Below, piece by piece: positions 13,166 to 62,599 of a stretch of DNA of 64,000 nucleotides. The stretch lies in NCBI GenBank assembly GCA_043228905.1, contig JBHGNT010000022.1, positions 8,246,001 to 8,310,000 of the forward strand, given 5' to 3'. The notes below the pieces were generated by a model. The model saw only the letters and a program-made list of their open reading frames with translations, searched no databases and had not been told where the DNA came from. A program made the translations under genes and the position numbers. This DNA comes from Azolla caroliniana (taxonomy: Eukaryota > Plantae > Polypodiophyta). How positions within the stretch are numbered: the first letter of the stretch is position 1; every line of letters begins with the position of its first letter.

Positions 13166-15820
13166 TTTTTTTTCCAAAAAAAACTACTTCCGTTAGTTAA
13201 GCAATGTACAAAGGATAATTTACAACTCATATCTTATAAGACATCTTGCATGTCAAAGGAAAACAATATGTGTAGATGAAACAACAAAAAAAACAACTCC
13301 AAAGCACCACATCATTCGATGTGTATAGCATTACTCGAACACATATTCTCCACATGAGCCTCATACTAGCAAAATTCAGCATAGATGTCCTCCATTCGCT
13401 CCTCATGGCAGCACCCATCTAGATGTTAGGTACACTTGGAGGGAACAACCACTGTGGTGGTTGATAATTCCACTTCACTTTACCATCCATTATCTGTAGC
13501 ATCGACGAACCGCTCCATTTCAGCAAGAAACGAGCTCTCGCTTTTTCACTTGCGTCAGATGGCCCTTGAAGACTTTCAAACTCACCTCGCAACATAGAAA
13601 TAAGATTGAACCAGATCATCATTAGATTCTCAACCGGTGGGGTTCATTTACCTGCAAAGGTCTCCTTGCACCTAGATACCCACACTTGCCAGACTGTAAG
13701 GCCAACCACTAATACCCATATGTCCACGCAGCGTTCCTATAAGAAGAATAAAGCTCCTTGCGCTGGTTGCACAGATCCTTGCATCACCTTTAAAGAATGA
13801 CTGTTTCCATTCCACCCTTGAAACCACGAGGCCGATTCAATGGCCAACCAAGTGATTGTTGCGCTCGATACATGAACCTCAACACCGAACCGAGCCAAGA
13901 TTCTTAAGCTCCTCAACCAAATTTCTTGCACTCGAGGGTAGCACCACAAACAATGAGCGATGTCCTCCAAGCTCACACTACAGGCCTTGCAACCACTCAT
14001 GCCGCCTTTATTCCCAAGCCACTCTCCCGTTGGAACAGCTTGATGGGTGATTAACCAGAAAAACACTTTGATCTGCTCGAGAAGGGATGAGTTCCATATG
14101 CTGCTCCTTGTTCTATCCACGAAGGCTGAATCGATAGCTGCATGGGACCACTTGTTGGCACACTTCTCACGATACGAACCTAACTTTCTCCCCAACCGCG
14201 TCGAGTATTTGAAGAAACCTAATGATTTATCTTGTTCTCCCTTCCACGTATATTCAACAAGATCCCATTCTACGCGCTCGAGAGGCTTGCCTTCAACCAC
14301 GTACAAGAGCCAATCCTCCTCAACCTCTTCGACTGGTGGATTCACCTTCCATTTCTTTCCGGCTCTTGCCATAATTCTAATCGGGTACCAGCCTACACTT
14401 CCATCTAATAATCCAATCTAGATGGTCTTCCCATTCTTTCCTAGACCCCTAACATTGATAATTTTTCCGGTATCATCACATTGTTCGGACCATTCACCCT
14501 CTTCCTCATTACCAATAGGAAGCGAGGAGACAACTGTATTGACTACGTCAAGCATCTTTCTACCATTTCTGACCTTTCCCAAGTCTTCATATAGTTGATC
14601 ACCATTATTGCCGGATAGCCGCATCCAATCAGCCACCGAGTGTATCCCTAGACAATACAATGTAGCCCACGGCATGTGCTTGCTTTGTCCAAGCATCATT
14701 CCTTCTGGCGATTGTACGATCTCGTTCCACAGTAGGGGTTGGCGCATCCATTCAGCACTAGTACTTGGACGATTCCGACTTAGATGCCCACAGAGCATAC
14801 TCCACGCCTACATCACTGACATACAAGTACAATCAGCCAACCGGTTAGATTTCCTCAACTTTAAGGCCATACAAAAAGGCCACGCTTTGTGTGACTTCCA
14901 ATGTCCACCCAGTCTTGAACTCCAGACAATGCTCCTATTATGCATCAATGTTTTCCATAACTCATTACCAGGTAGCAAGCTCCTTACCAATACCTTACAT
15001 AACAATGCTTGACTCTGCAATCCAGGGTCAATCAATCCTAAACCCCCCTTACTCTTGGGAAGAACCAACGTAGACCATGATACTTTGGCTGTCGCATTGT
15101 CTTTCCTCATCCCAGCCCAAAGGAATCCCCTAATACACGTTTTAACATTATGAATAGCTTGCTTGTCAAACATCCACACTGAAACTGCATGCCATAACAT
15201 ACACAAGAGCACATGGTTAGCTACTATGATCCTGCCAGCCAATGATAAGTTCATCCCTGACCAGTTGCGAATTTTGTCACAGATTTTGCTTTGAATTTGT
15301 TGCAACTGAATTCCTTTGTCGATGTCTACCCCAATCCACGTGCCCAGATACCTAGTGGTGTCCCCGTTTGCAATCCATTTGAATTTAGCATTTGGCTTCC
15401 AAACAGGCTCGGACTCCAAGCTGATCCAAAAACCCTTGGACTTCTTCCAATTGATGGACGCTCCCGATGCCTTGCAAAAGAGCTCAATAGCACTCTGTGC
15501 CCTCTCAAGATTCGCTTCATTTCCTTGGAGGTATAGCATCGTATCGTCCGCGAACTCCGAGTCCAGCAGGGACTTCCTTGAATTAGGGATCGAAAGACCA
15601 TGAAGATTTGCCCCTTGACTATTAAAAAGGGCAAACATTGCTTTAGTAATAAAAAGGAAAAGAAAGGGGGCAAGAGGACAACCCTGCCTGATGGATCGAG
15701 TTAGAAAGATTCGAGCTCCTTTCCTCCCTGCAATCAACACCTTACTCGAGCCATTCCTATATAAGGCTTGGGCAGCACATCTCCACTCCAAAGGTAGCTC
15801 AATGACCTTCATTATATAAG
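13166..15820 (-). mobile_element. 5'-truncated L1-type LINE (RT C-terminal half, zf-RVT, poly-A tail)
   Basis: IRQGCPLAPFLF, FADD, KSKGGLGL, CKAC..HCLWC; T-run at 13164-13173; 13-bp TSD GCTTATATATGTT at 13153-13165 and 15821-15833. Confidence 0.93.
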
Positions 15821-16148
15821 GCTTATATATGTTATACCTCTAGTGTTTTTGGGTAATGTTTCCTAATTATGTGTGCATTACTTTGTACTTTACACATTGT
15901 GTTTTCAATCTATGTGGCACTTGATGAAGCATTTCTAGGAATTGCATATGAAGTTCATAATTTTGCGACTCATTAATTGTAAAGGCAGTTATTGATCACT
16001 TCTAGGATTGGAAACTATGTATGCATATATATTTTATATGTAAGGGTATTTAAAATGGGTGGTTATCAAAAAATATATTGGTATTAAGGGGTATTTTTAT
16101 TAATCTTTTTTCTACAAAAGGGTCACTAAAATAGTAAAAACCATACGT

Positions 16149-16906
16149 TGTCGTAGTGTAATTCGCACACTACGTGAAAATCACATTTTTGTCCCTCTGG
16201 ATGGAACCGATGAGAACCGGATGAAGGATGGAATCGGCAAGTAGGAACCGATAAGGAGACCTGGTAAGAACCGGATCAAGCAGAACCTGCAAGAGCCGGA
16301 TAAAGAAGGCCGGTGAGAGTCTCTCACAAGATGAAGAGACAAATTTGTAAATAGAAGAAAAGATTGTTACATGCATAGGGCAAGATTCGAACCCTGTACC
16401 TCCATGTGAACGATTTTTAAGCCTTACCACTATATTAGCATATTATGAATTGTAAAGTTATACTAAACTTTATCCCATGTAAATATTCTAGATATGCATG
16501 GTACAAAAAATTATTCATGCATACACACTCGAGTTAAAAGAAAAGTTGGGATAGGAAGCTAATCATGCACATGCAGTGTGCATGAAAACTAAAGTTAGGA
16601 AAAGCATGATGCTTGCATGTGATAAACTTAGACTCTTCCAACACTATATAAGGAAGAGAGAAAGATGTATAGGTGTTGTTGATTTGTATAAGGTTGGAAT
16701 AAGATAAAACTATTCGTGGGATTCATGATTTTGCCATCTATTTCTCTCTTACATTCTAAGTATCAATTAATACACTATACTCGTGGGATTCATGAGTTTC
16801 ATATCTTCCTTCAAATATATCTCTTTCTTGCAATACTTTCCCCTAGTCCAAAACCCAGCGGTTCCCACCCAACTCACGTAACGATCTGACGCCGAAAGGC
16901 ACGACA
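16149..16906 (+). mobile_element. Solo LTR (TGTCGT..ACGACA family), 4-bp TSD ACGT
   Basis: Termini TGTCGTAG/CACGACA; homologous to 61018-61728. Confidence 0.88.
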
Positions 16907-16929
16907 ACGTATAAGGGGTTTATAAATGA

Positions 16930-17461
16930 TGTCATGAATGCACGTGATACAACCATCTTATATATAGTGGAGTCCCCGGGATAAATTAACTTACCACTAA
17001 AGCCACTACTGAGTGCTTTAGAATTTGTATATTTTCTTTTCATATTCAGTAATTTGTAGGAAGCAAACATATAGAAACCGTGGGCACAAAACCATGGTTT
17101 TAGCCCATGGTTTGAGCTCGTGGTTTTAGCCCATGGTTTTAGCCCGTGGGTTTAGCCCGTGGGTTTAGCCCATGGAGAGACCTATAAAAGCCTATAGTTG
17201 GGCTTGTGTAAGGGGGGAAGTGATGTAAGTAAAAAAGAAACTTTTAATCAAAGATTTGAGTTATCCTAATGGTGATGTATCTTGTCTCGAAAAACTAAAG
17301 CCAAGGGTTCAATCTCTATCTCCATCTCTCTCTCTCTCTCTCAATCCATCTATCTATCTTCAATACTTTCTCGCTTACGCTGCTAAAAACATCGAATCCT
17401 TCCGGTCTAGGACCCCAGTGATCCCGCTTAGTTTCGCGAACACGCGAGGATTTCCTCGACA
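16930..17461 (+). mobile_element. LTR of a related subfamily (TGTCATG..CCTCGACA); flanks do not match, so probably recombinant
   Basis: From about 16985 to its end it is near-identical to the solo LTR at 58733-59325; contains TTAGCCCRTGG repeats. Confidence 0.75.
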
Positions 17462-19612
17462 CCGGAACGATTCGGACCGGAAAGGGTCGAATCAGAAGGG
17501 AACGTCGGCGATCGCAACAAGTGAAGAAGAACTTATGCTCATTATTGAGGAGAATGAGTTAAACCTTGTCGGCGATGAGACAACGTGGGTTGTCAATTCC
17601 GGAGCATCGTTCCATTTGACACCGGACCGAAAATGCTTCTCATCCTACATAGCCAGAGATCATGGTTGTGTCCGGATGGGGAATGAAGGTACATGCCAAA
17701 TTGTCGGCATAGGAGATGTGTTGTTGACGACATCAACCGGATACAAATTGTTGTTGAAAGAAGTTTGACACGTTCTGGAGGTTTGGTTGAACCTGATATC
17801 AGCCGGTTGGCTAGATGATGAAGGCTACACGGGTAACATCCAGAACAGAGTCATGAAGTTCAGCAAGGGAAGCTTTATCGTGGCTCAAGTCTGGAAGATC
17901 AACACGTTGTACATGATGCATGCATGGATATGCTTGGAAGAAGTGAACGTAGCATCCAACACTGCCGGTGAGCTATGACACAAGAGACTATGTCACATGA
18001 GCCAAAAGGGGATGAGAAGACTTGCCAAAGACAACCTCATTCCGAAGATGAAAGACGTGCATCTTGAGAAATGCACCAATTGCTTAGCCGGCAAGCAAAA
18101 CCGAACATCCTTCCAGTCAAAAACACTGATGAGATGGAATGCACCACTGGAGCTACTACATACCAATGTGTGCACGTGGACATGAAGTCACATGCGGGAT
18201 TGCAGTACTTTGTGACGTTTAAGGATGACCACAGTCAGAAGTTGTGGGTCTCACCATTGAAGACGAAGGATCAGGTGTTGTCTGTCTTCAAGGAACTCCA
18301 CGCAAGAGTGGAAAGAGAAACTGGTTGGAAGCTGAAAGCGGTTCGAGTAGGTAATGGAGGAGAGTATTGGGGGCAGTTCGAAGAGTATTGTCGATCGAAG
18401 GGAATCTAGCTCGAATTCACCGTGCCGAAAACGCCAGAACTAAACGGGTTGGCCGAATGGATGAACCAGACCGTGATGGAGAGAGTCTAGAGCATGTTGG
18501 CACATGCAACACTGCCCAAGACATTTTGGGCTGAGGCACTGATGATGGCAACGTACGTGATTAACAGGTCACCCCGGCACCCTTGGAAGGAGACACACCA
18601 TAGAGAGCATGGACCGTTAAAGACGTGTCTTATCGGCATCTAAAGGTGTTCGGGTGTCTGACATATATGCATGTTGCAAACGACAAGAGAGCAAAACTAG
18701 ATCCAAAAGCCAGGCCATGCATATTCCTCGAATACGGTGATGATGAGTTCGGTTACCGGGTGTGGGATCTAGTCGACAAGAAGGTGTTCCGGAGTCAGGA
18801 CATAGTCTTCATGGAGGACAAGACCATTTCCAACTTGGAGTCGGAGAAGAAAGTGATGAACTCCGGATCATCCAATGAAAACCGGCTTGAGGACACAAGG
18901 ACTTACCCGGTTGAAAACCGGATGTTGGCCGGCAACTTGATGACACTCGACGAACTGGCCGGATATGGACAAGAAACCGAACCGACCGAAAATGATGATG
19001 AAGAAGAAGACACCGGAACTGGACAAGATGCTGAATCGGATTCGGATTTGGATTCGGATTCGGAACAAATGGAGGAACTGGTGGTCAGAAACCAAGGACG
19101 GAGATATCCAGAACAAGTGGGCTGAAACCAAGAGATGCCAAAAATCCACCAAGGTACAAAGCCCGAATCGTGGTGAAGGGGTTCTAGCAGAAGAAAGGAG
19201 TGGATTTCGACGAGATCTTCGTCCCGGTAGTAAAAATGACATCCATCCGGACCGCAAGCATGGACCTCGAGGTAGAGCAACTGGATGTCAAGACGGCATT
19301 TGTCATAATATGGCAAGACTCGAACCCATGAACTTATGTTACATGGCTCGAGCTCTTCACCATTACACTATCTATTGTAATACATAATATATTATTTTTA
19401 TTCAAGTTTTACTATAGAAAATTAATGTATATTCCAGATTTCTCTGGAACATTCTAGAAACTTCAGGACTACTCCCGAGAACACTATAAAAGGAGACACA
19501 AGGCATTATTTCAAACCAAATCGGTTCAACGCCAGTCTTAAGCCTCCTAGCCTTCCTTGTATATTCTTCTCACATAATATATCGTTGTCATTATCATTTT
19601 CTCTACCTCGAT

Positions 19613-20177: not shown

Positions 20178-22131
20178 TCTCTCCTTCTCTCGAGTGTTCT
20201 ACACCCTCTATTCCTCTTAGTACTAATATTCCTCTCTTAGTACTAATTTCTTCTCTATCTCGGTACTATTCCTGACAGTTTGAACTGATTTTTCTCCTTC
20301 CGTCTTCTCCTTTCCTCCTCTTCATTTTATCTTCTTACATAACAGTTTGATCGGTCTTCCTACAAAATTTGATGGGACCTGATCACAATTTAGAGGTTTC
20401 TGAATCAGGTATGTTCAATGATTCAAATGCATCCTTCTCGATATCCCACTGACGCATCACGAGTGGGACTAGTAGGCACTCTACTTAGTGGCTCAACATT
20501 GGCATGGTTCGCTCCGTTGTTAGAAAAGGAATCTCCATTACTAAACAATTTTGAAGAATTTATAAGTTAGTTTAAAACCTATTTTGGAGATACTGACAAC
20601 ATAAGGACAACAATCAACAAAATCCGACGACTACGCCAAGGTGATTGTCCAGCTTCCGCATACGCTATAGATTTCCGCCTCCTCGCATCCGATATCCCTT
20701 GGGATGATCAAGCATTGATGGAGGAATTTCGTTATGGTTTACGCAACGATGTCAAGGATGTACTCTTGACCTTCCTCGAGGGAGTCATATAATGCGTCTC
20801 CAGTGAATACTCCGACTCTGATGGAGATTGACAATACACGTCATTGCGGACCATTATCGGAAGAAGAAAAGCAACGACGTCGAGCAAATCGACTATGTCT
20901 TTATTGCAATGGACCAGGGCATATTGCAGTAAATTGTCCCCATAGGCCAAGAAGACAGGTAAACCAAATAGTTGCTAGTTCTAATTGTACTAAACCCGAG
21001 TCTATTTCAGTAGGAATATCTGATAGTCCTAATAGTACTAATAGCCCAAATCTAGCGAACAAATTTGATGTACTTAGTCAGTTAGAAGAAGAGTTAAATG
21101 AATAAGTCTAGCTAAAATAGGAATTGTTTGGTTGGACAACCCTAGATCTGTGCAGCCCATTAGTGGTTCCATTCCCTCTAAGCAAGTTAGCAATGTGTTC
21201 GTAGCCCAAGTAACAGTTAGTACTAAAAGTACCCCTCCAGTACTTGTGACTCTTAGCACTTCTAGATATCTCTAATTCTTGCTTCATGGATAGGAATTTT
21301 GCCCAAGCTCATCAAATATCTCTCAGAAAACTCCCGCGTCCAGCCTCTGTAGTAGCCATTGATGGTCATCCCATTGCTTCCGAAAATATCATAGAAGAGT
21401 CAGAGCCCGTTAATATTGTCCTAGATAATCTAGCGTGTGTAGTATCATTTAATATAACTAGTATCCCAGAACATCCCATTGTTTTAGGATTACCATGGTT
21501 CGAATTACATAACCCAGACATAGATTGGAGAACAAGAGAAATCTGGTATCGATAAGCTAGAGGATCTACTCATAAGATTGCAACCATTTCACTACATCAA
21601 TTGCGGGAAGAAAGACACAAGGAAGAAATGTTTCTCTTCGCAATATCAGTAAAACCCTCTGACACCACTAAAGAGGAGTCCACTGTTCAACTTCCAAAGA
21701 AGTATCATCATTATGCCGATGTGTTCGATAAAGTACAAGCTAATACGCTTCCTCACCATCGACCGTATGATTGCCCCATCGATTTACAACCGGGAAAAGA
21801 GCCACCGTGGGGACCGATCTACAATTTGTCAACAACCGAGCTAGAAGTCCTTTGAGCCTATATGGAGGAGAATTTGGAAAATGGTTTCATTTGGCATTCG
21901 AAATCTCCAGCCGACGCACCCATTTTCTGTGTCAAGAAAAAGGATGGATCACTTCGTCTCGTAGTAGATTATCGTTGCTTGAATAAGGTCACCATCAGAA
22001 ATAGGTATGCACTTCCTCTTATCTCAAGTCCTTTAGAATGGATCAATGGTGCAAGGTTCTTCACGAAGATCGACTTACGGGGGGGAGCATATAACCTCGT
22101 ACGGATCCGAGAGATGAATGGAAAATAACGT

Positions 22132-25090
22132 TGTCGTGGAGAAAACTGGCCATAGGAGAAAACGGGGGAAAAGACGCAGGAACCGACCCTTACGCGTGGC
22201 CAGACTATTTATTAAGGTGTACATAACCAGATCTGATTTAGCTGATGTAAATATACTAGGTAGTACACATTAATTGTCTAGGGAATCCAAGTGTATCTCT
22301 GTCCGATGGGACAGAGGATAAATGTATGTAACCGAGGATAAAAGGGAGGGGAGAAGACTGATACAAGGACCATGCATTTTTGAGAGGGAAGTGTTGTCGG
22401 ATTGGGAACCGAGCTCTCTCCTCCACTATCGTTGTTCCTTTTGCAGGGATTTGGGTTAGGTTGGTTGCCTCTATTGCATGAAAACCCGTGTGCTTTCGGT
22501 AGAGGCTCCACTGCGTATTTCAGTGCATGTGTTCATGTCACCAGCTTGTCGGTTGTAACATTGCAAGCTCGGTAATCTATACTGTTATTGGAATTGATTC
22601 GTTTGTTTCTGTCTCTCTGTGTTTCTGCGAGTCTCTCTCCCTCTTCTCTCTCACGCTCCTCGGTTCAGGGTCCCTGCGGTCCCGCCGTACTTCATACGCG
22701 AGTGCGTAACAACACGACATCAAATTGGTGAACCCGACGTGAAGAGGCAGCGAGGACGAAGATGGAAGACAAAGACTTCGACTTTGCGGAGATGATGGCG
22801 AAGATTGTGATGGATGCCCGACGGAAGAAGGCGAGGCAAGATGCGACTCAACAAGTCGTCGAGAGGGTGGTCGATCGAGTTGGCCGATTCAACGAGGACA
22901 ATGTCCCGAGGTTCTTGAAAGCGTACAATGTCGAGATGACGAAGAGGGGCGTGGACGAAGCGATGCGGCTAGAAAATTTTCGTCGAGTGGTAGCCGTATT
23001 AGTGCACAAAGAGGTCAAGGAGCTTCAAGAAGCTCACGAGTCATGGGATTCCTTTGAGGGAGCTCTATTGGAGGCATATGGATACGCGAAACTGGAGTGG
23101 GTATGCCGGCAACCCGATGGGGAGCGGTCGACAACAATGTGGTCTATGAGTGGCAGAGAAGAGAGGGCGGTGAGTGGCTATGCACTACCGCAAGAAGAGA
23201 GCTCGATGTACGATCAACCGGAGGAGTACGACCTAGAGGCGTTGGTATGGGAAGCGTGCGAGAGCATGAAGGCGAAGTTCGAAGCCAAAGAAGGGCTTAT
23301 TATGGAGTCGGGCCAGAGACGATCGGAGGATGCGGAGGAAGAAGCCTCCCTACGCGTGGACGATGGGGTCGATGCATAGGCCGGAAGAGCGTGCAACAAT
23401 GACGACGAGGGAGAGGGTGCGGAGCAAGAGACCCTCTCATCCTGTGGAAAAGGGACGGCCATGGATGAGGCCGGTGACTACGAAGCAGGGAGCGCCACTT
23501 CGAGAGTGGGCGGAGGATTCGGGACACGGTGGCCCGAAACATCAAGCGGGGAGGAGATGAGCGGTGGTGCCAGGACCTTACCCACACCGATTCTAGAGAC
23601 TCCAGTGTCCCGCCCGAGAGTCGGTGTGAGACCTAGAGTGACTAACGGTGGCGGCGGCAAGGCGGGCAACCAAGACGACGGCAAGGAGATCGAGGAAGAG
23701 GAGGCGGCAAGCGTAATCGAGGCTTCTACGATCGAAGACGGTGTAGCCACGGACAACGACGTCCGGATGGAGGTGGCTACGGTTCTAGAGACTCCGGCAT
23801 CCGGCCCGAGAGCCGGTATGAGACCTAGAGTGACGGACGGTGGCGGCGGCAAGGCGGGTGACCGAAACGAAGAGGAGGATGCAAACCGAAGAACGAGCGT
23901 GCATTCGGGGAACGATAACAACACATGGGAAGAGCCTACGAAAGGCGAGCTTGGAGCGGAGAGAGTTGGCATGCGGAGGTGTTCGGGGCGCGGACACGAT
24001 CGAACCGACGGAGGGGCATACGCGGCACACAAGGCGTGGAATCCGGCGTACAACCGATGTGACCGGGGGCCCAATTGAAGGGCATACATGGCGGACAAAG
24101 TCGGAGTGGCCGGATCGAGGAAGAGAAGGCGCGAACATCGAATATGGTGGATCGGATGGATTCGGTGGTTCGGGGACAAGCAGTGGACCTGGTGGATCAG
24201 ATGGAGCCGACAGATCGGGATTGGAAGCAGCCGGCAAGGCGGTCGGGTGCCGGGACGGCGGAGGACCCTAAACCCTAAACCGGTTTATCATCATCGCCAA
24301 AATCTCTCACCTTTTCCCTCTTGGCACGTACCAGTGGATGTGCGGTTTGGTGGGGGCAGATGTCGTGAAGATTTCCGGCTACGGTGAGAAAACCGGGAGG
24401 GACAAATAAAATGGAGATGTGCAACATTGCACATGCACTTGTAAATTTGTGTAATAAGAATAAGTAAACAAAATGTAGTGGGAAGGGTAATAATCTAAGG
24501 TGCTAAAGGTGCACCACGAAGTTCATAGAGGAATAATGTGATGTGCACTTTGTAGAGTAGAATGAGTAGTGAGCTCGTGTAAAAAAAGTAAGAGAGAGGA
24601 GAGGTAAAAAGTAGAGGGGAGACAAGCTAAGAATTTACAGAGATAGAATCATTATATAAGAGAGAGTTAATGGGCTAGTGGATAGTCACATTGACTTCTA
24701 GCTAGAGGTGCATGGTTTAAATCTAGTCTTATAGTGTAGCGTGATTTAAGGAATTTTATTCCTTTTTTGCATTAAAGACAAAATTGGCGACCCCCCCTTC
24801 CTTTTTTCCTATAAAAGGAGGTCGAGGGGGGTTCATTTGGGGTTTGTCTATTTTGGGTGAGAGAGGTATACCACTTAGGTCGAGGGGTTCTATTCGGTTT
24901 TAGGGTTTCTTCTAGGGTTTTCTTCTTGCGTTTCTTTTAGGGTTTCTATGCTTCTTTGCTTATTTATCCGGTTAGGGTTTTCTTGTAGTCGTTTTGGGTG
25001 CGGCCTATGCGGTCTTGGTTGTAATTTTGTTTGTGAACTCTTAATATAGAATGTTGATGTTTCTTGTTGTGTGGGTGTATCTTGCCTCCA
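22132..25090 (+). mobile_element. Non-autonomous gag-only LTR element inserted in the chromovirus RT; 5' LTR 22132-22719, tRNA-Trp PBS, truncated divergent 3' LTR from 24361
   Basis: TGTCGTG..CACGACA; PBS TGGTGAACCCGACGTGA at 22726-22742; purine tract TGGTGGGGGCAGA before TGTCGTG at 24361; no pol motifs. Confidence 0.8.
22762..23379 (+). CDS. Truncated gag-like capsid ORF (205 aa)
   Basis: ATG just after the PBS; GRFNEDNVPRFLKAYNVEM..SWDSFEGALLEAY resembles a retrotransposon capsid N-terminal domain. Confidence 0.6.
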   Translation: MEDKDFDFAEMMAKIVMDARRKKARQDATQQVVERVVDRVGRFNEDNVPRFLKAYNVEMTKRGVDEAMRLENFRRVVAVLVHKEVKELQEAHESWDSFEGALLEAYGYAKLEWVCRQPDGERSTTMWSMSGREERAVSGYALPQEESSMYDQPEEYDLEALVWEACESMKAKFEAKEGLIMESGQRRSEDAEEEASLRVDDGVDA

Positions 25091-31405: not shown

Positions 31406-33135
31406 TAGATCCCCCACTAGTTAGTCAATGTAAAATTCAACAAGTCCTACTTTATGTTTGCAATCAAATGGCGTATATGAAATTGGGGACCTAATAGATG
31501 GAAATGGAAACTAAATCATTGTTGTCTTGTGATCAAACTAAAACTTTTAGACCTTCAATGCTCCTTTGACAAAATGAATGATTGACCAATACAAGAACAC
31601 ATGAGAGTCAAGATCACCTACAAAAACACCTATGCATACTATGATTGAAAATTGAAGTACTTTAACATTGATTCTACACTAATCCACAAAAAGGAAAGTG
31701 AGAGCAAGTGTCCAATTTGTCTACTTTTCAATTTCGAAGTTTACAATGCATAAATACCACAATCATATGAACAATTACATAAAATGATGAAATGCCTTCC
31801 AATTCTCATAGAAGGATATTGGAATGCTCATATTGATAAGAATTCAAAACTCATTTAAGTTCCTATTATTTGAAATAGAACATGCACGTTTATGCATGCA
31901 TTTGTTGAAAATGTTTCCATTGACTTTATAATATGACGAAGCCTGAAACTGGCGCATTCAAAGAGCAACAAATTGTATACGCATGATAAATTGAGTGTAG
32001 ATTTCAACTTGATTTTTTATGTGTCATTTTACTAAAAAACAAGAAAAGATTTGAGATGATAAGACTCCATGTTTCTTTCTACATAGCATGTAAAGCATTT
32101 GTATTGAACTTTATGCATGTCGAACTTCAAATAATGGTGACATAATTTGCCATTTCATTGAAAAAATATCTATGTGATAGAATCATGGTTTATTATTGAA
32201 AACCTTTTGAAAAGTAGAATTATTAAGAGCATGGAAGGAAATTTCACTTGAATTTGTTAGAAATATGTGAGGCCTAGAGAGAAGTATGGGATGGTGATTG
32301 GATATGAAATTATTCCATGTAATTAGAAGTGTATCAATCAATATTGTGTGTTGTGTGACATTCAAGGAGTGGGTGCATGTTGACAGAAATAAATGGATTT
32401 ATTTTTAACTTGAGAGACAGTGAGAGATGAGAGCGACTTAGTTTGTAGCTTTTATATAAGGCAAAAATTATATGCCTACTAAAAAGGGACAATAATACAA
32501 CACTTAAAACATTATGATTAGCAATTGGCCTTGCGTGGAAAGAGTTCTCTTTCCACGGAATATATGTCATCCACATGCAATACAAATGGGTGTTTATAGT
32601 AATCGATGATCCAAAGGGCTCCGTGTGCAACACGCACTGATGTTTCTTGTACCAGCTAAACTAGAAGGAAAAGAAAATGTGTGTAGGGGGAAGAAAATGT
32701 CAAAGATGAATGAGTCACCTCGAAGCTCGACGTACACACATGCGTAGATCTAGATGTACACGTACACGTATACACACACACACACACACACACACATGAT
32801 AAGTTGACCCACCTAATTTGTTGTGCAAGTTGTGCACATTCAAAGCAAAACAAACACATGCATGTAAAAACCCAATAAATAAAGTGTCGAGACAAATGGA
32901 CACACATATATATATATATACGTATGTATGTATAAAGAGAAAGAGAGAGAGAGAGAGAGAGACTTTTGTATGACTTAAGTAAGAAGCTCTTTTGCCTTGG
33001 AGGAAGAAGAGGAGGAGCCTTTGATCAACAACCAACCCCCCCCTCCACACCCCCAACCCTAACCCCAAAATTGGGTGTGAATAACCCCTTGCTGCTTTCT
33101 CCCTACCTTCTTCATCTTGCTGCTGACTTGGCACC

Positions 33136-33660
33136 CTGGCAGCCCTCGTGGCACTCCTCGTGCCCGCCACTTGGCTGGCATTGACGGCATGGCTCCCCGT
33201 AGCTTGCTTAGGAGCGGCCGCCATCGTCTCGTGCGCCCTACAAACAGAATGCCCAGAAGAAGAGTTCGACGAGGACGAGGACGAGGTATACGGCCGTGGC
33301 GGCCCGCTCACATGGCACAACCCATCCAGCCCTCGACCCCTCGATCCTGAGCTCGTTCGCGCCATCCCTTGCGTGCCTTACCACGAGCACCGTAACCGTG
33401 CTTGCGGGATGGATCAACGCACGTGCGTAGTGTGTCTCGATGCATTCGATTCCCATGCCAATGTCCGAGAATTGCCGCTTTGCCGACATGCCTTCCATGC
33501 CGAGTGTATCGACTCATGGTTCCTAGGTCATTCCACATGCCCGATTTGTCGCCACGACGTGGCTTCATATTCCCCGTCCATAACACATTCCAAGGACATT
33601 TTGGCTACATCCGATGTGAACAGATCTTCTTCGGTTTGCCGGCTAGGAGTAGCAGCTTAG
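33136..33660 (+). CDS. ATL-like RING-H2 E3 ubiquitin ligase (host gene); start codon uncertain (CTG)
   Basis: N-terminal hydrophobic segment, acidic patch, GLD-like PLDPELVRAIP, RING-H2 CVVC..LPLCRHAFHAECIDSWFLGHSTCPICR; TATA at about 32931 followed by a GA repeat. Confidence 0.85.
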   Translation: MAALVALLVPATWLALTAWLPVACLGAAAIVSCALQTECPEEEFDEDEDEVYGRGGPLTWHNPSSPRPLDPELVRAIPCVPYHEHRNRACGMDQRTCVVCLDAFDSHANVRELPLCRHAFHAECIDSWFLGHSTCPICRHDVASYSPSITHSKDILATSDVNRSSSVCRLGVAA

Positions 33661-57436: not shown

Positions 57437-58732
57437 GCTTTGTACAGTAGTTACACCAATAACTTTATACAATCATCAACTACGACTTCACCTCTGTTTG
57501 CCCTAGGTCATATTTATACTAATATGACTTTCAGGCTATTTACAAATGTAGCCACAATGGGCTAACAGAGACATATTTACATATATGTCCCTTCATCCGG
57601 TGAGAGGTTCTCACCGGGCCTATGTCATCCGGTTCTCACCGGGTTTTCCTTGCCGGGTACTCATCATCCCATCTGGAGGGACCGAAATCCTAACAATCTC
57701 GACATAGTCAATTCCCTGGTTCTACGGGTATCCCATGGCCATCAATCGGGCCTTGTACCCGTTGACCAAACCATCAGCGTTGTATTTCACCTTATACACC
57801 CACTTACATCTTATTGGCTTACAATTCTGGGGAGGGTCAACCAAGTCCCATGTGTCGTTGGCATTGAGTGCCCGCATTTCTTCCTCCATACCGAAACGCC
57901 AATTCGCGTCTTTTGTCGTTTCTACGTAGTTGTCTAGGTCACGCACTTCCACCACCTTTTTCATCTACGCATAATGGTGCGCCATGTACTCATTATATCC
58001 ATACCACAGCACGGGGGTCTTCTAGTAGGTGGATCGGCATAACTTCTGATTCGTCGATTTTAGGGCCCTCTTGGTCAACTTGGACTTCATTTCCAAAGGT
58101 CTGTCTTCATTGTTTTGGGTGTCGGATTCGCTCTGATCCGACTCTTCCTTGTCAGTGTTGTACTCTAGCATCTTCTTCTCTTCCTTTTCCTTGTGTGTGT
58201 ACCGTCTTCTTGGTTCCTTGCGTGGGGAGTGCACACCCGAGTCTCCACTACTCACCGGCTCATCATCTGACTGGTCGTTTCGACGTAGTCTCTCATTTGG
58301 CTTGCTTAGCTTAAATGAGATCAGACTCTCCTCCAAAGTGTCAATATCCTCTTCCTCTTCTTCCCGAATCATGTCGGGTTCAGTGGCCTCATCTTCAGTG
58401 ATCAAGTGGTCGGAGTTGTCAAGAGATGGAGTCGGAGTCGGTAAGGAGTACCATGATGTCGACTCATCGAATTCGACATCTCGGCTCAATAGAACTTGTT
58501 TGGTCTGGGGGTTATAACACTTATACAGCTTCTATTCATGTGAGTAGCCGACCAATATGCACTTCTCCGACTTCGGGTCCAACTTTCTCCTCTTCTCACC
58601 GGGCACATGCACATAGGCTATGTTGTCGAATACCCTCAGGTGTCTTAAGTTCGGCTTCCATCCGAAATACATGTCATGTGTTGACACCTTTTCCCCAATC
58701 TGGTTTTGGATGTAGACCGTTGTCCGAACCAC

Positions 58733-59325
58733 TATCATGAAGATTTTCGGCAACGGTGTGAAAATCGTGTGGAACAAACAAAACCGAGAAAGTGTAATGA
58801 GCACTCAAACATTTGTAAATAAAATAAGTCTAAAGCCTAGTAACCTTTGAGTTCATACAAAGGGGTGCAAGCAAGGCTTGAACCTTGCACCTCCATGATA
58901 AGAGACGAATTAACTTACCACTAAAGCCACTACTAAGTGATTTAGATTTTGTATATTTTCTTTTCATATTCAATATTTCGTAGGAAGCAAACATATAAAA
59001 ACCATGGGCACAAAACCATGGTTTTAGCCCGTGGGTTTAGCCCATGGTTTTTACATCGAGAGACCTATAAAAGCCTATAGTGGCGCTTGTGTAAAGAGAG
59101 AAGTGATGTAAGTAAAACTTTTAATCAAAGATCTGAGTTATCCTAATGGTGATGTATCTTGTCTCGTAAAACTAAAGTCAAGGGTTCAATCTCTCTCTCT
59201 CTCTCTTCATCCATCTATCTATCTGCAATACTTTCTCGCTTACGTTGTTAAAACATCTAATCCTTCCAGTCCAGGACCCCAGTGGTCCCACTTCATTTCG
59301 CGAACACGTGAGGATTTCCTTGACA
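58733..59325 (+). mobile_element. Solo LTR of the 4-bp-TSD family
   Basis: TATCATG..CCTTGACA (decayed TGTCGTG..TCGACA); flanks CCAC/CTGC both derive from CCGC, which restores the host integrase. Confidence 0.85.
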
Positions 59326-61017
59326 CTGCTTCGGCCCAGTAAAATTTGGGCATGCGCTTCTTTTCTAGCATTGCCCTTGCTGCTTCCACATTTGACCAGT
59401 TCTTCCTTTCAGCAATGTCGTTCTATTCCGGCGTATATCTACAGCTAAACTCTATGAATTACCATTTGCCGTAGATAACAATTGAATTGGCCAGAAAAGT
59501 ATTCCTTTCCGCCATCCGATCGTAGGCACGTAATCTTTCTCTCTGTTTCCCTCTCGACTCAGCTTTGTAAATTCCAGAAACAATCGAAGACTTCGATTTT
59601 CTTCTCAATGAGGTAGATCCATGTGTGTCGGTTGTAGTTGTCGATGAATGAGATGAAGTATCAATTCTCAGCTAGACTTACATTCTGTGTTGGTCTCCAA
59701 ACATCCGAATGGATCAAATCAAGCTTGTTGCGGCTCCGATTACGCTCGTTGGGGAATGAAAGTCGGTGTTCCTTCCCAAGCTGGTAGGCTTCATAAATTT
59801 GGACCTTCCGGTCACTGAATTTCAGTAAGCTGAATACTACTTGTTTCGACTGTAGATCATGAAGCCTTTGTGTTGAGAGACAAGCTCAACATCGGTCGGA
59901 TCGGCTGAGCAAGACGAGGACCGGATCGGTTGGGACCGATCAGTTAGGCTGGATCAGTTGGAAACCGGTACGCAGACCGGTGCATAGGAAGGCCGGATCG
60001 GTGCAGAAACTAGGAAGCCATCAGAAAGATATTCCGCAAGGAATATATTTGGGAGTCAGTGTCGAAGCTCATTTATGAGCAGTCAAGTACCATCAGTACT
60101 TGTGTCAGCCCGATTGTCAGGGCTTATATAAAGGTGCTCACTGAGCACATCCTATGTATAAATTGAGTATTATTTCGAATATAGTTCTGTTTTTTTACTC
60201 TCTCTGTCTCTCCCGTGCGTACTGTGCAAACCTAAGCTTTCCATTAAACCTACGTTTTCTGTTGTTCATTTTCCTATATTGCTTCCGCACGCCATTCTTT
60301 TCATGGTATCAAAGCGCGAGGGTTGAGAACCTCTGCAGTCGACTTTGCTTGAAGGAAAAACCAACGAAGAAGAACAAGAAAACCAATGGACAGAGGAATG
60401 GCTAGCTCGCTTCCGACGGAGAAGCTCGACAAAACCAACTACGCATCTTGGTCCTACAACATGCACCAGTACCTACTTGGGCACGGTTATTGGAGCTATA
60501 TCGAATGAGTGAATGACACGGCACCCGAATTGACACACAAAGACTTCCCGGCATGGGAACAATCGGTGAGCAGAGTGTTGTACTGTTTCGAGTCTTGTGT
60601 GGGCGAACAGCTATTAAGCTACATTCGAGATGCAAAAATGCCGAAGGGTGCGTGGGAAAATCTAAAGAAGATCTTCGCCACGAGCACCACAACCAAGAAG
60701 CTTCAGCTCCGACGGGAGTTGAGCAACCTACGACAACGCGATTTGTCGGTGGCTGACTATACCTCGAAGATCAAGGACATATGTGACTCCTTAGCTTCCA
60801 TTGATGTAAACATTGAGGAAAGCGAGATAGTCTAGGTCTATCTCGGGGTTTGGCATCGAAGTTCGGGGCGTTCCGAACTGTTGTGTGTACCCGAGAGAAT
60901 ACGACATCCATTTTTGACTTACAGTCGATGCTCCTAGTAGAGGAGAACCATGCGGGTGCATCAACGAGCACGCACACCGACAGCAAGATGTTGTACACGG
61001 AGGGAGATAGGCCCCGT

Positions 61018-61728
61018 TGTCGTAGGGTATTTCATACACTACATGAAAAACTTATAAAGTAACGTTTTAGTAAATATGAAGAGATAGAAGAAAATCTCAA
61101 AATAAATAATACATGCATAGGGCAAGATTCGAACCTTGCACCTCCATGTTAATAATGTAATGTCTTACCATTACACTAGCATTTCATTCCTGTTAAAAAG
61201 TAGATGTCCCGCATAAAAAAAGGTAAGTTCACGTAGGATAAACTTTAGTTAAAAGAAAAAGCTACGCATGCACATCTAGCGTGCATGAACGCTATAGTTG
61301 ATAAAAAAACGCACAAGTTAGAAAAAGCATAATCACTTTAGATAAAGTATATAGTCTATCTATAGGAAAAGCATGGAGTCTATAGTTAGAGAAAAAAAAA
61401 CATGGATTCCTAAGACTCCCTCATCACTACATAAGGATGGGGAGCACAATGTAATAGGGGTGTGAAAAATATTTGGGAAATTGGATATATTTCCTAAAAC
61501 ACCAATTAATATAATCGTGGGATTCACAAAGTTTTATATAATCTATCTCTTTCAATCTAAATTCATATTCTTACATAAATATTGATTAATGTAATCCTTG
61601 TGGGATTCACAAGCTTCTAATAATCTATACATAATTAAAATCGCCTCAAATTCTTCCTCTTCCTAGTCCATAACCCCAGTGGTTCCCACCCGACTCACGC
61701 AAATGATCCGGAGCTGAAAGGCACGACA
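61018..61728 (+). mobile_element. Solo LTR (TGTCGT..ACGACA family), 4-bp TSD CCGT
   Basis: Removing the LTR and one CCGT restores the gag sequence seen at about 50695-50725. Confidence 0.92.
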
Positions 61729-62599
61729 CCGTGGATGTGGAGGACGAGGCGAGTCAGTGCGCAATGGAGGCGGCCGACGAGATCAAGGAAGGAGGCACTG
61801 AAATGATGCCGACAGCAATTCCGGACCCTCCGGAAACAGGGGGAGTCGAGGCGATGAGAACCGCCAAGGGAAACCCGCCACGGAATGCTAGTATTGTGGC
61901 AAGAAAGGCCACAGGGAGAGCGAGTGCTGGAAAAAGCGCGCCGAGTCGGAGAGGACTGGTTCCGGATCTGGTTCCGGACATACCGACAAAGGAAACCGGC
62001 AGCTATCGCACTACGCCGAAGGATCTGGAAAAGCCGGAAAAGGGTTTGCCTTCGTGACGAGACACGAAGCAAACTCAATGAAGCATACTACCCCGAAATC
62101 GGACGAGGTGTTGTACGTCGACTCCGGCGCGTCAAATCACATGACGAGCCATAAGGAGTGGTTCATGTACCTAGAAAAACCAATGCAACCGGGAGTAGTC
62201 ACAACCGGAGATGACACTCCGCATCCGATCGCGAGTGTCGGAGAAGTTCCCCTGAGCCATGTCGGGCAGAAAGGGAAATTCATGAACGTGCTACACGTTC
62301 TGACAATCACGAAGAACTTGGTGTTGGTCGGACAGATCGTCGACCAAGGGATGGAGGTCCGCTTTACACACCTCAGGTGCTTCATTGAGGAAGAAGGCCA
62401 TGTTATTGCGCAAGGGCGCAGAGATGGGAGGATGTTCATCCTCGAATCTACTGACGGTGGCACCGCAATGTTCGCGAAGGGACAAAAAGTCGAGTCGGAC
62501 ATCGACTTATGGCACAAGCGGATAGGCCACGTCAATTACCAGCGGCTTCAAGACCTGCAATCGAAACAAGTGGTGTTCGGATTGCCCAAATTTAGTGGC

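What the first reader, a model, noticed from the sequence alone, without database searches (positions are those of the whole stretch)
16145..16910. LTR family that inserts into CpG-centred 4-bp targets (NCGN)
Seen: TSD ACGT/ACGT (16149-16906), CCGT/CCGT (61018-61728), CCAC/CTGC from an original CCGC (58733-59325), left flank ACGT (22132), right flank CCGG (17461) and left flank ATGA, which could be decayed ACGA (16930). All junctions fit NCGN, while the copia and chromovirus insertions with resolvable TSDs show the 5-bp duplication usual for plant LTR elements. The LTR termini (TGTCGT/ACGACA) also contain CpG. Inference: an integrase with a 4-bp stagger and CpG, possibly methyl-CpG, specificity that would steer insertions into other TEs.
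Basis: partly seen in the sequence, partly recalled or inferred. Interest (0 to 1): 0.72.

Follow-up and report, generated by a model that had tools for sequence, protein, structure and literature searches.

The report
Phygy-type retrotransposons inserting at CG sites
Several related plant jumping-gene families here insert almost only into four-letter sites with CG in the middle, mostly ACGT; this matches a habit already published for the Phygy group of moss retrotransposons, to which they likely belong, and nothing tested here points to recognition of methylated DNA.

Summary
Five of six cited junctions hold; 16930 is not an LTR end. In 99 loci picked without regard to flanks, the 4-mer next to the LTR has central CG in 47 of 60 left and 39 of 48 right host junctions; most others are TG/CA decay (background CpG 0.045 per base). 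Of 23 solo LTRs, 22 have a 4-bp duplication with at most one mismatch and none a 5-bp one. The window holds three to four LTR families, not one. Full-length partners (about 7 kb, all examined broken) are Ty3/gypsy elements with a tRNA-Trp primer site and no chromodomain. Neumann et al. 2019 list exactly this for Phygy: 4 bp, NCGN, tRNA-Trp. REXdb references could not be read, so placement is indirect. Added here: ACGT is preferred, TCGA avoided, and the integrase clade conserves unusual residues at inferred target-contact positions. Flanks are no more repetitive than random CpG sites, so CG choice alone can explain the lean towards other TEs; methyl-CpG reading is unsupported, not excluded. 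An earlier scan note named Phygy as closest for nested elements elsewhere in this genome.

The parts
16145..16148 (.). Left copy of 4-bp target site duplication, ACGT
   Evidence: Sequence; single ACGT in 9 of 9 empty paralogs
16149..16906 (+). Solo LTR, family A (758 bp, TG...CA)
   Evidence: At least 40 genomic matches at 83-92%; 235 exact copies of its first 28 nt; family copies flanked by PBS and PPT
16907..16910 (.). Right copy of TSD, ACGT
15812..16976 (.). Unrelated multicopy host repeat interrupted by the family A solo LTR; contains 16930, which is therefore not an LTR end
16980..17461 (+). 5'-truncated LTR of family B; right flank CCGG (17462-17465) in a copia protease region; left junction lost
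22128..22131 (.). Left target 4-mer ACGT inside the RT of a chromodomain-bearing gypsy element; partner copy not found
22132..22719 (+). 5' LTR of family D
22726..22743 (+). Primer binding site, 18 nt complementary to the 3' end of host tRNA-Trp(CCA)
22732..24075 (+). Two open stretches (215 and 232 codons); the first is gag-like by DNA similarity to internal regions of related elements; no pol; likely a short non-autonomous element
   Evidence: no Pfam hit
24349..24360 (+). Polypurine tract, followed at 24361 by the first 60-85 nt of a family B-like LTR; the rest of that LTR was not found
58729..58732 (.). Left TSD copy CCAC (CpG-decayed CCGC)
58733..59325 (+). Solo LTR, family B, inside a copia integrase gene
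59326..59329 (.). Right TSD copy CTGC (CpG-decayed CCGC)
61014..61017 (.). Left TSD copy CCGT
61018..61728 (+). Solo LTR, family C (related to A), inside another copia-like element
61729..61732 (.). Right TSD copy CCGT

Best explanation
These are LTRs of several non-chromoviral Ty3/gypsy retrotransposon families that duplicate a 4-bp target centred on CG, likely members of the Phygy clade, and their integrase likely picks the CG by DNA sequence and shape rather than by methylation. Shown: the 4-bp duplication, the CG centre, the preference for A first and T last, the avoidance of T first and A last, an 18-nt tRNA-Trp primer site, gag-protease-RT-RNase H-integrase order, and no chromodomain, archaeal RNase H or methyl-binding domain hit. 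Inferred from retroviral intasomes (PFV): two active sites cut 4 bp apart, which needs a sharp kink at the central pyrimidine-purine step. Base contacts, probably from the conserved loop of the integrase SH3-type C-terminal domain, would narrow that step to CG. Solo LTRs likely arose by LTR-LTR recombination. After insertion the TSD CpG decays to TG/CA at the same rate as CpGs of the LTR end, likely through methylation. Because repeats in this genome are CpG-rich, CG choice alone sends most insertions into other TEs.
For: TSD length: of 23 solo LTRs, 11 exact and 22 within one mismatch at 4 bp, 0 at 3, 5 or 6 bp. Empty-site overlap was 4 bp in 15 of the 16 solos that had paralogs, of 22 tested. 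CG or decayed CG centre in 58 of 60 left and 47 of 48 right host junctions; families B, C and D show CG in 16 of 20, 17 of 19 and 11 of 18 left junctions. Edge rule: T first 1 of 58 against a local share of 0.35; A last 2 of 58 against 0.32. Serrao 2015 reports the same edge rule and a central YR step for retroviruses with 4-bp TSDs (PMC4422553 passages). PBS matches host tRNA-Trp(CCA) genes over 18 nt. Phygy row of Neumann 2019 Additional file 5: 4 bp 100% (NCGN), tRNA-Trp 81%, no extra domain. 17 of the 120 listed homologs of the gag-protease region are Physcomitrium patens predicted proteins (best E 5e-46). The RT tree puts six own-genome rows in a 100/100 clade with Riccia and Adiantum RTs. 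The integrase model (pLDDT 78.5) matches PFV intasome chains best. The position aligned with PFV Ala188 is Glu or Asp in 70 of 70 close relatives and in 0 of 9 distant ones; the C-terminal loop has Gln 67, His 65 and Lys 70 of 70. Against a methylation signal: flank CpG o/e 0.96 equals random CpG sites; repeat content equals random CpG sites; TCGA decays as often as ACGT in these elements (0.26 of 476 cells, 0.23 of 137) yet was the target in 0 of 60 and 0 of 48 junctions.
Against: No named Phygy RT or integrase was in the tree: REXdb's sequence file was too large to read, and the P. patens hits are unlabelled gag-protease fragments at 33-46% identity. Elements here are 6.8-7.3 kb, below the published Phygy range of 7.7-10.0 kb. 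The role of the conserved residues is by analogy only; the SH3 loop was not aligned residue by residue to PFV Arg329, and TSD preference is known only for the own-genome members of the clade. Flank CpG density (0.049) is lower than around random CpG sites (0.060, p 0.005), though equal to random ACGT sites (0.051, p 0.33), and repeat content is somewhat higher than at random ACGT sites (48 of 60 against 102 of 150, p 0.09). The background rests on 13 segments of 10 kb, so its sites are not independent. One solo (L219) has ATGT on both sides and one full-length copy ACAT on both sides, so rare non-CG targets may occur.
Confidence: 0.75

Rival explanations
1. The integrase, or a host reader protein tethering it, recognises methylated CpG and so aims at silenced TE DNA.
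For: The target dinucleotide is the main methylation context; 48 of 60 flanks hit repeats against 94 of 150 random positions (p 0.015); at least five window insertions lie in other repeats; TSD CpGs decay like LTR CpGs (19 of 105 against 15 of 78), so they were likely methylated at some time.
Against: Enrichment in repeats vanishes against random CpG sites (124 of 150, p 0.69). Flank CpG o/e is not depleted (0.96 against 0.96). No chromodomain or MBD hit in two own-genome integrase pieces or two intact relatives, while the neighbouring chromovirus gives a Chromo hit at 1e-12. TSD decay is explained by methylation after insertion.
Confidence: 0.12
2. The families form a separate, unnamed non-chromovirus lineage of non-seed plants that shares 4-bp NCGN targets and tRNA-Trp priming with Phygy but is not Phygy proper.
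For: Shorter than published Phygy; Phygy was defined as specific to P. patens in 2019; closest named RT and integrase hits are Adiantum (66-69%) and Riccia (about 60%), with no P. patens RT or integrase among the listed hits.
Against: All diagnostic features tested match the Phygy row; P. patens holds a multi-copy relative and Phygy is the only non-chromovirus gypsy clade that paper names from P. patens; a later paper reports Phygy in a liverwort (PMC12885004 passages).
Confidence: 0.1
3. The NCGN pattern is an artefact of misplaced LTR ends or of choosing CpG-rich copies.
For: LTR termini contain CpG, and the search pattern favours copies with intact CpGs.
Against: The pattern held no flank bases; LTR ends are fixed by PBS and PPT junctions in other copies; empty paralogous sites give a 4-bp overlap; the control family treated similarly gives 1 CG in 31 junctions.
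Confidence: 0.02

Closest known systems
Phygy clade of non-chromovirus Ty3/gypsy elements (Neumann et al. 2019, PMC6317226; passages, section 9 and Additional file 5 read)
   Same: 4-bp TSD with NCGN preference, tRNA-Trp PBS, no extra polyprotein domain, coding region filling nearly the whole interior
   Different: Here 6.8-7.3 kb against 7.7-10.0 kb; at least three to four LTR families plus short gag-only derivatives; the motif is resolved further to ACGT preference with T-first and A-last avoidance; placement against named references not run
TatI and Selgy clades (same paper, Additional file 5)
   Same: 4-bp TSDs; TatI also uses tRNA-Trp
   Different: TatI carries an archaeal RNase H (100%), not found here; Selgy uses tRNA-Ala; neither is listed with a target motif
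Retroviral intasomes with 4-bp TSDs, PFV as model (PMC4422553 abstract and passages; PMC4005685 passages)
   Same: 4-bp stagger, central pyrimidine-purine step, T and A disfavoured at the first and last TSD positions; closest solved folds to the integrase model
   Different: Retroviral preferences are weak; here the central step is nearly always CG; an acidic residue stands where PFV has Ala188
Tcn1 chromoviruses of non-seed plants (PMC6317226; PMC2864245 passages)
   Same: Co-occur in the window and serve as targets; Phygy nested in Tcn1 is reported for P. patens (PMC6911290 passages)
   Different: Tcn1 has a chromodomain, 5-bp TSDs and mostly self-priming
TR-GAG non-autonomous elements (PMC4350172; search listing only)
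   Same: Short (3.2-3.5 kb) family C copies with LTRs, PBS, PPT and one long gag-like ORF
   Different: Described from flowering plants in the listing; here the ORF has no tested Pfam gag hit and the copies keep the NCGN target

Membership tests
Phygy | Ty3/gypsy domain order gag-PR-RT-RH-INT | tested here: met
   Open stretches in four full-length copies run in this order; Pfam RT_RNaseH, rve and SH3_Tf2-1 on own pieces, some below cut-off; RVT_1, RT_RNaseH, H2C2, rve on intact relatives
Phygy | 4-bp TSD | tested here: met
   22 of 23 solos within one mismatch at 4 bp, 0 at 5 bp; empty sites
Phygy | NCGN target preference | tested here: met
   CG in 47 of 60 and 39 of 48 junctions, plus 11 and 8 TG/CA
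Phygy | tRNA-Trp primer binding site | tested here: met
   18-nt match to host tRNA-Trp(CCA) in 2 of 2 PBS compared; same motif after LTRs of all four families
Phygy | No chromodomain, no archaeal RNase H, no extra ORF | tested here: met
   No such Pfam hit in 9 own pieces or 2 intact relatives; positive control Chromo hit in the window chromovirus; integrase frame ends at the PPT
Phygy | Monophyly with REXdb Phygy references in RT-RH-INT trees | not testable with these tools
   Reference file too large. Indirect: P. patens gag-protease homologs; clade with Riccia and Adiantum RTs
TatI | Archaeal RNase H in the polyprotein | tested here: not met
   No such Pfam hit in intact relatives or own pieces
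Selgy | tRNA-Ala PBS | tested here: not met
   PBS matches tRNA-Trp
Tcn1 chromovirus | Chromodomain and 5-bp TSD | tested here: not met
TR-GAG (short family C copies) | Under 4 kb, LTRs, single gag ORF, no pol | tested here: inconclusive
   3.2-3.5 kb with one ORF of about 500 codons whose start resembles the family's gag by eye; not scanned against Pfam
Methyl-CpG-targeting integrase (hypothetical) | Preference for methylated over unmethylated CpG | not testable with these tools
   No methylation data; indirect proxies gave no signal

The most novel reading that the evidence does not exclude
A retrotransposon integrase of early land plants reads CpG directly through clade-specific residues (an acidic residue at the PFV Ala188 position and a conserved Gln-His/Lys loop in the C-terminal domain) and prefers the methylated form, so that it targets silenced DNA without any chromodomain.
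Probability: 0.12. Interest if true: 0.7.

Novelty: new member of a known kind. Interest (0 to 1): 0.2.

Why it matters
As a discovery of CpG-centred 4-bp targeting it is not new: this is the published signature of Phygy. It still gives a large quantified set of target sites, a finer motif (ACGT favoured, TCGA avoided) and candidate integrase residues. Neumann et al. name Phygy as the one exception among plant LTR lineages in having a target motif, so how it does so is a fair open question. My searches found no paper on its mechanism or on a methylation dependence. If methyl-CpG were read directly, it would be a new route for heterochromatin targeting.

Tried and rejected
Orientation bias of the target (NCGT only): rejected, since first-position counts (A39 C11 G9 T1) mirror the complement of the last (44, 8, 6, 2). 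A longer palindrome around the TSD: only weak A/T bias two and three bases out on the left, not mirrored on the right. 16930 as an LTR end: rejected. Flank preference as a mirror of methylation context: CpG loss is 0.19-0.26 in all ten contexts (cells are not independent). Copia TSDs in the window: unresolved. A pattern meant to find tRNA-Trp genes returned six non-tRNA places, four examined; the genes were found. Atlas search uninformative. Metagenome relatives were short contigs, mostly the element alone; four carry the same PBS motif and none gave a TSD. A recalled report of context-dependent CG methylation in moss could not be found and is not used. DUF4100 paper search: 0 papers. PMC7466625 passages do not mention Phygy or TSDs. 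Recurrent use of one site was not tested statistically.

Full report
Observation. The window (G000:C22:8246001-8310000 of a 523-Mb assembly) is a nest of retroelements. The LTR at 16149-16906 is flanked by ACGT on both sides, the one at 61018-61728 by CCGT, and the one at 58733-59325 by CCAC and CTGC; ACGT lies left of 22132 and CCGG right of 17461. The sixth junction fails. The LTR ending at 17461 matches its family only from about 16980, and 16907-16976 belongs to another multicopy repeat that continues to the left of 16149. That repeat gives a clean empty-site test for the focal insertion: 9 of 9 copies examined carry one ACGT where the window has two. The LTRs are not one family. A and C are 76% alike over aligned columns; B and D are 60-66% alike to the rest.

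Genome-wide test. A 28-nt pattern from the start of LTR A, holding no flank bases, has 235 exact matches. I examined the 100 listed (contigs C1-C7 only) and dropped one tandem duplicate. After reading the output I reclassified by hand three left flanks as PPT and four right flanks as PBS, and accepted four right ends with a mutated terminal CA. Of 99 loci, 60 had a host left flank and 39 a PPT; 48 had a host right flank, the rest a PBS or no locatable end. Central CG was seen in 47 of 60 left and 39 of 48 right 4-mers, TG or CA in 11 and 8, anything else in 2 and 1. Background CpG is 0.045 per base in 13 segments of 10 kb and 0.048 in local flanks. Of 23 solo LTRs, 11 match exactly at 4 bp and 22 within one mismatch; none match at 3, 5 or 6 bp. 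Of 22 solos tested, 16 had paralogous empty sites and 15 of these gave a 4-bp overlap. Families B, C and D (30 best-matching loci each, identical flanks merged) show CG in 16 of 20, 17 of 19 and 11 of 18 left and 11 of 13, 15 of 17 and 9 of 11 right junctions; one PPT in B and one in D slipped into those left counts. The window's chromovirus LTR family, as control, gives 0 of 16 and 1 of 15, and its window copy has a 5-bp duplication. The pattern favours copies with intact CpGs, so decay is underestimated.

The motif. First position A39 C11 G9 T1, last position T44 G8 C6 A2: symmetric, ACGT preferred, with TCG and CGA avoided although TCGA is the commonest CG context in the flanks (0.108). A second pattern (LTR end plus NCG, 197 matches) gave A80 G9 C7 T4 for the first base in the 100 rows listed (my hand count).

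What the element is. Four full-length family A copies were fetched; three could be measured at 7.0-7.3 kb and one family D copy at 6.8 kb. They have a PBS 4-6 nt after the 5' LTR, a G-rich PPT and gag-protease-RT-RNase H-integrase order. All seven copies checked are broken by stops or frameshifts (longest open stretch 240-574 codons). LTR pairs are 95-97% identical in A (3 pairs) and 93-95% in B and D (3 pairs). The PBS matches host tRNA-Trp(CCA) genes over 18 nt. Four other places carry 25-39 nt of the tRNA-Trp 3' end joined to an inverted LTR-like end, which likely records reverse transcription running into the primer. Pfam finds no chromodomain, archaeal RNase H or methyl-binding domain in own pieces or in two intact relatives, while the neighbouring chromovirus gives a Chromo hit. 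Named relatives are Riccia, Adiantum and Physcomitrium patens proteins. An RT tree of 54 rows (two of 56 dropped: a duplicate and a second piece of one copy) places six own-genome rows with Riccia and Adiantum at 100/100, apart from six other own-genome RTs (midpoint root, no named Phygy row). The host is likely a non-seed land plant (inference from these relatives).

Comparison with what is known. Neumann et al. 2019 (PMC6317226; passages, section 9, Additional file 5) state that Phygy elements are the exception among plant LTR lineages in preferring NCGN, with 4-bp TSDs in 100% of 186 elements, tRNA-Trp PBS in 81% and no extra domain. Every such feature tested here is met; size is slightly below their range, which the paper treats as a weak classifier. 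Additional files 1 and 3 (element table, sequences) could not be read and would bear on membership and on whether the ACGT bias is already tabulated. Jedlicka et al. 2019 (PMC6911290 passages) report GC-rich centres in 4-bp TSDs and Phygy nested in Tcn1. Phygy is also reported in a liverwort (PMC12885004 passages).

How it likely works. Retroviruses with 4-bp TSDs select a flexible pyrimidine-purine step at the centre and disfavour T first and A last; PFV Ala188 and Arg329 make base contacts, the latter from the loop between the first two strands of the C-terminal domain (PMC4422553 abstract and passages, PMC4005685 passages). The integrase model here (pLDDT 78.5) matches PFV intasome chains best. 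The position aligned with Ala188 is Glu in 65 and Asp in 5 of 70 close relatives and neither in 9 distant ones; the C-terminal loop holds Gln (67 of 70), His (65) and Lys (70). I infer that the general kink rule is sharpened to CG by such contacts. This step is analogy, not a test.

Methylation and TE targeting. Flanks of 48 of 60 insertions hit repeats in a 1-Mb library of fetched DNA, against 124 of 150 random CpG sites (p 0.69), 102 of 150 random ACGT sites (p 0.09), 94 of 150 random positions (p 0.015) and 19 of 30 control chromovirus flanks (p 0.12). Flank CpG o/e is 0.96, as at random CpG sites; CpG density is lower than at random CpG sites (p 0.005) but equal to random ACGT sites (p 0.33). 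TSD CpGs are lost as often as the CpG at the LTR end (19 of 105, 15 of 78). TCGA decays as often as ACGT inside these elements yet is not used. So CG choice alone can account for the lean towards TEs, and the edge preference does not follow methylation. These proxies are weak: 13 background segments, a library enriched for TE DNA, and selection after insertion. Direct reading of methyl-CpG stays possible. Searches for a paper on it found none.

Verdict. A real, strong target preference, carried by new families of a described kind. Interest 0.2; the methyl-CpG reading has probability about 0.12.

Noticed in passing
L300, L301, L302 (and pair L068/L069): Short family C elements of 3.2-3.5 kb with LTR pairs 99.7-100% identical, matching NCGN TSDs and one gag-like ORF of about 500 codons: likely very recent non-autonomous insertions, although every full-length copy examined is broken.
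   Followed up: partly
L296-L299: 25-39 nt of the host tRNA-Trp 3' end, with CCA, sit in genomic DNA joined to an inverted LTR-like end: likely aberrant cDNA in which reverse transcriptase copied part of its primer.
   Followed up: partly
window 22128-22131 and L010: A family D element in the window and a family A solo LTR elsewhere sit at the same position of paralogous chromovirus RT genes, in opposite orientations. Chance not assessed.
   Followed up: no
window 22132-24445: A family D 5' LTR and PBS lead through gag-like DNA to a PPT followed by the start of a family B-like LTR: a possible recombinant or template-switch product.
   Followed up: partly
window 15812-16976; L349-L357: An AT-rich multicopy repeat, 94-99% identical between copies at its end, that stops sharply at a CCCGGG-containing terminus with unrelated flanks; class not determined.
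   Followed up: partly
L229, L218: Two solo LTRs have ACGT TSDs where the paralogous empty sites found read otherwise (AAGT in all 11 shown for L229), so the target CG may have arisen by mutation before insertion.
   Followed up: no
window 33127-33657: Open stretch with a RING-type zinc finger (Pfam zf-RING_2, E 2e-14), probably a host gene exon inside the TE nest.
   Followed up: no
L306, L313, L314, L341, L344-L347: Tandem arrays of tRNA genes: tRNA-Lys/Asn at about 0.3-0.4 kb spacing, and tRNA-Trp at about 1.2 kb spacing on contig C8.
   Followed up: no
L048-L050, L053, L054: Several family B LTR copies in tandem on contig C18, each after GCGT and lacking the normal 3' end.
   Followed up: no
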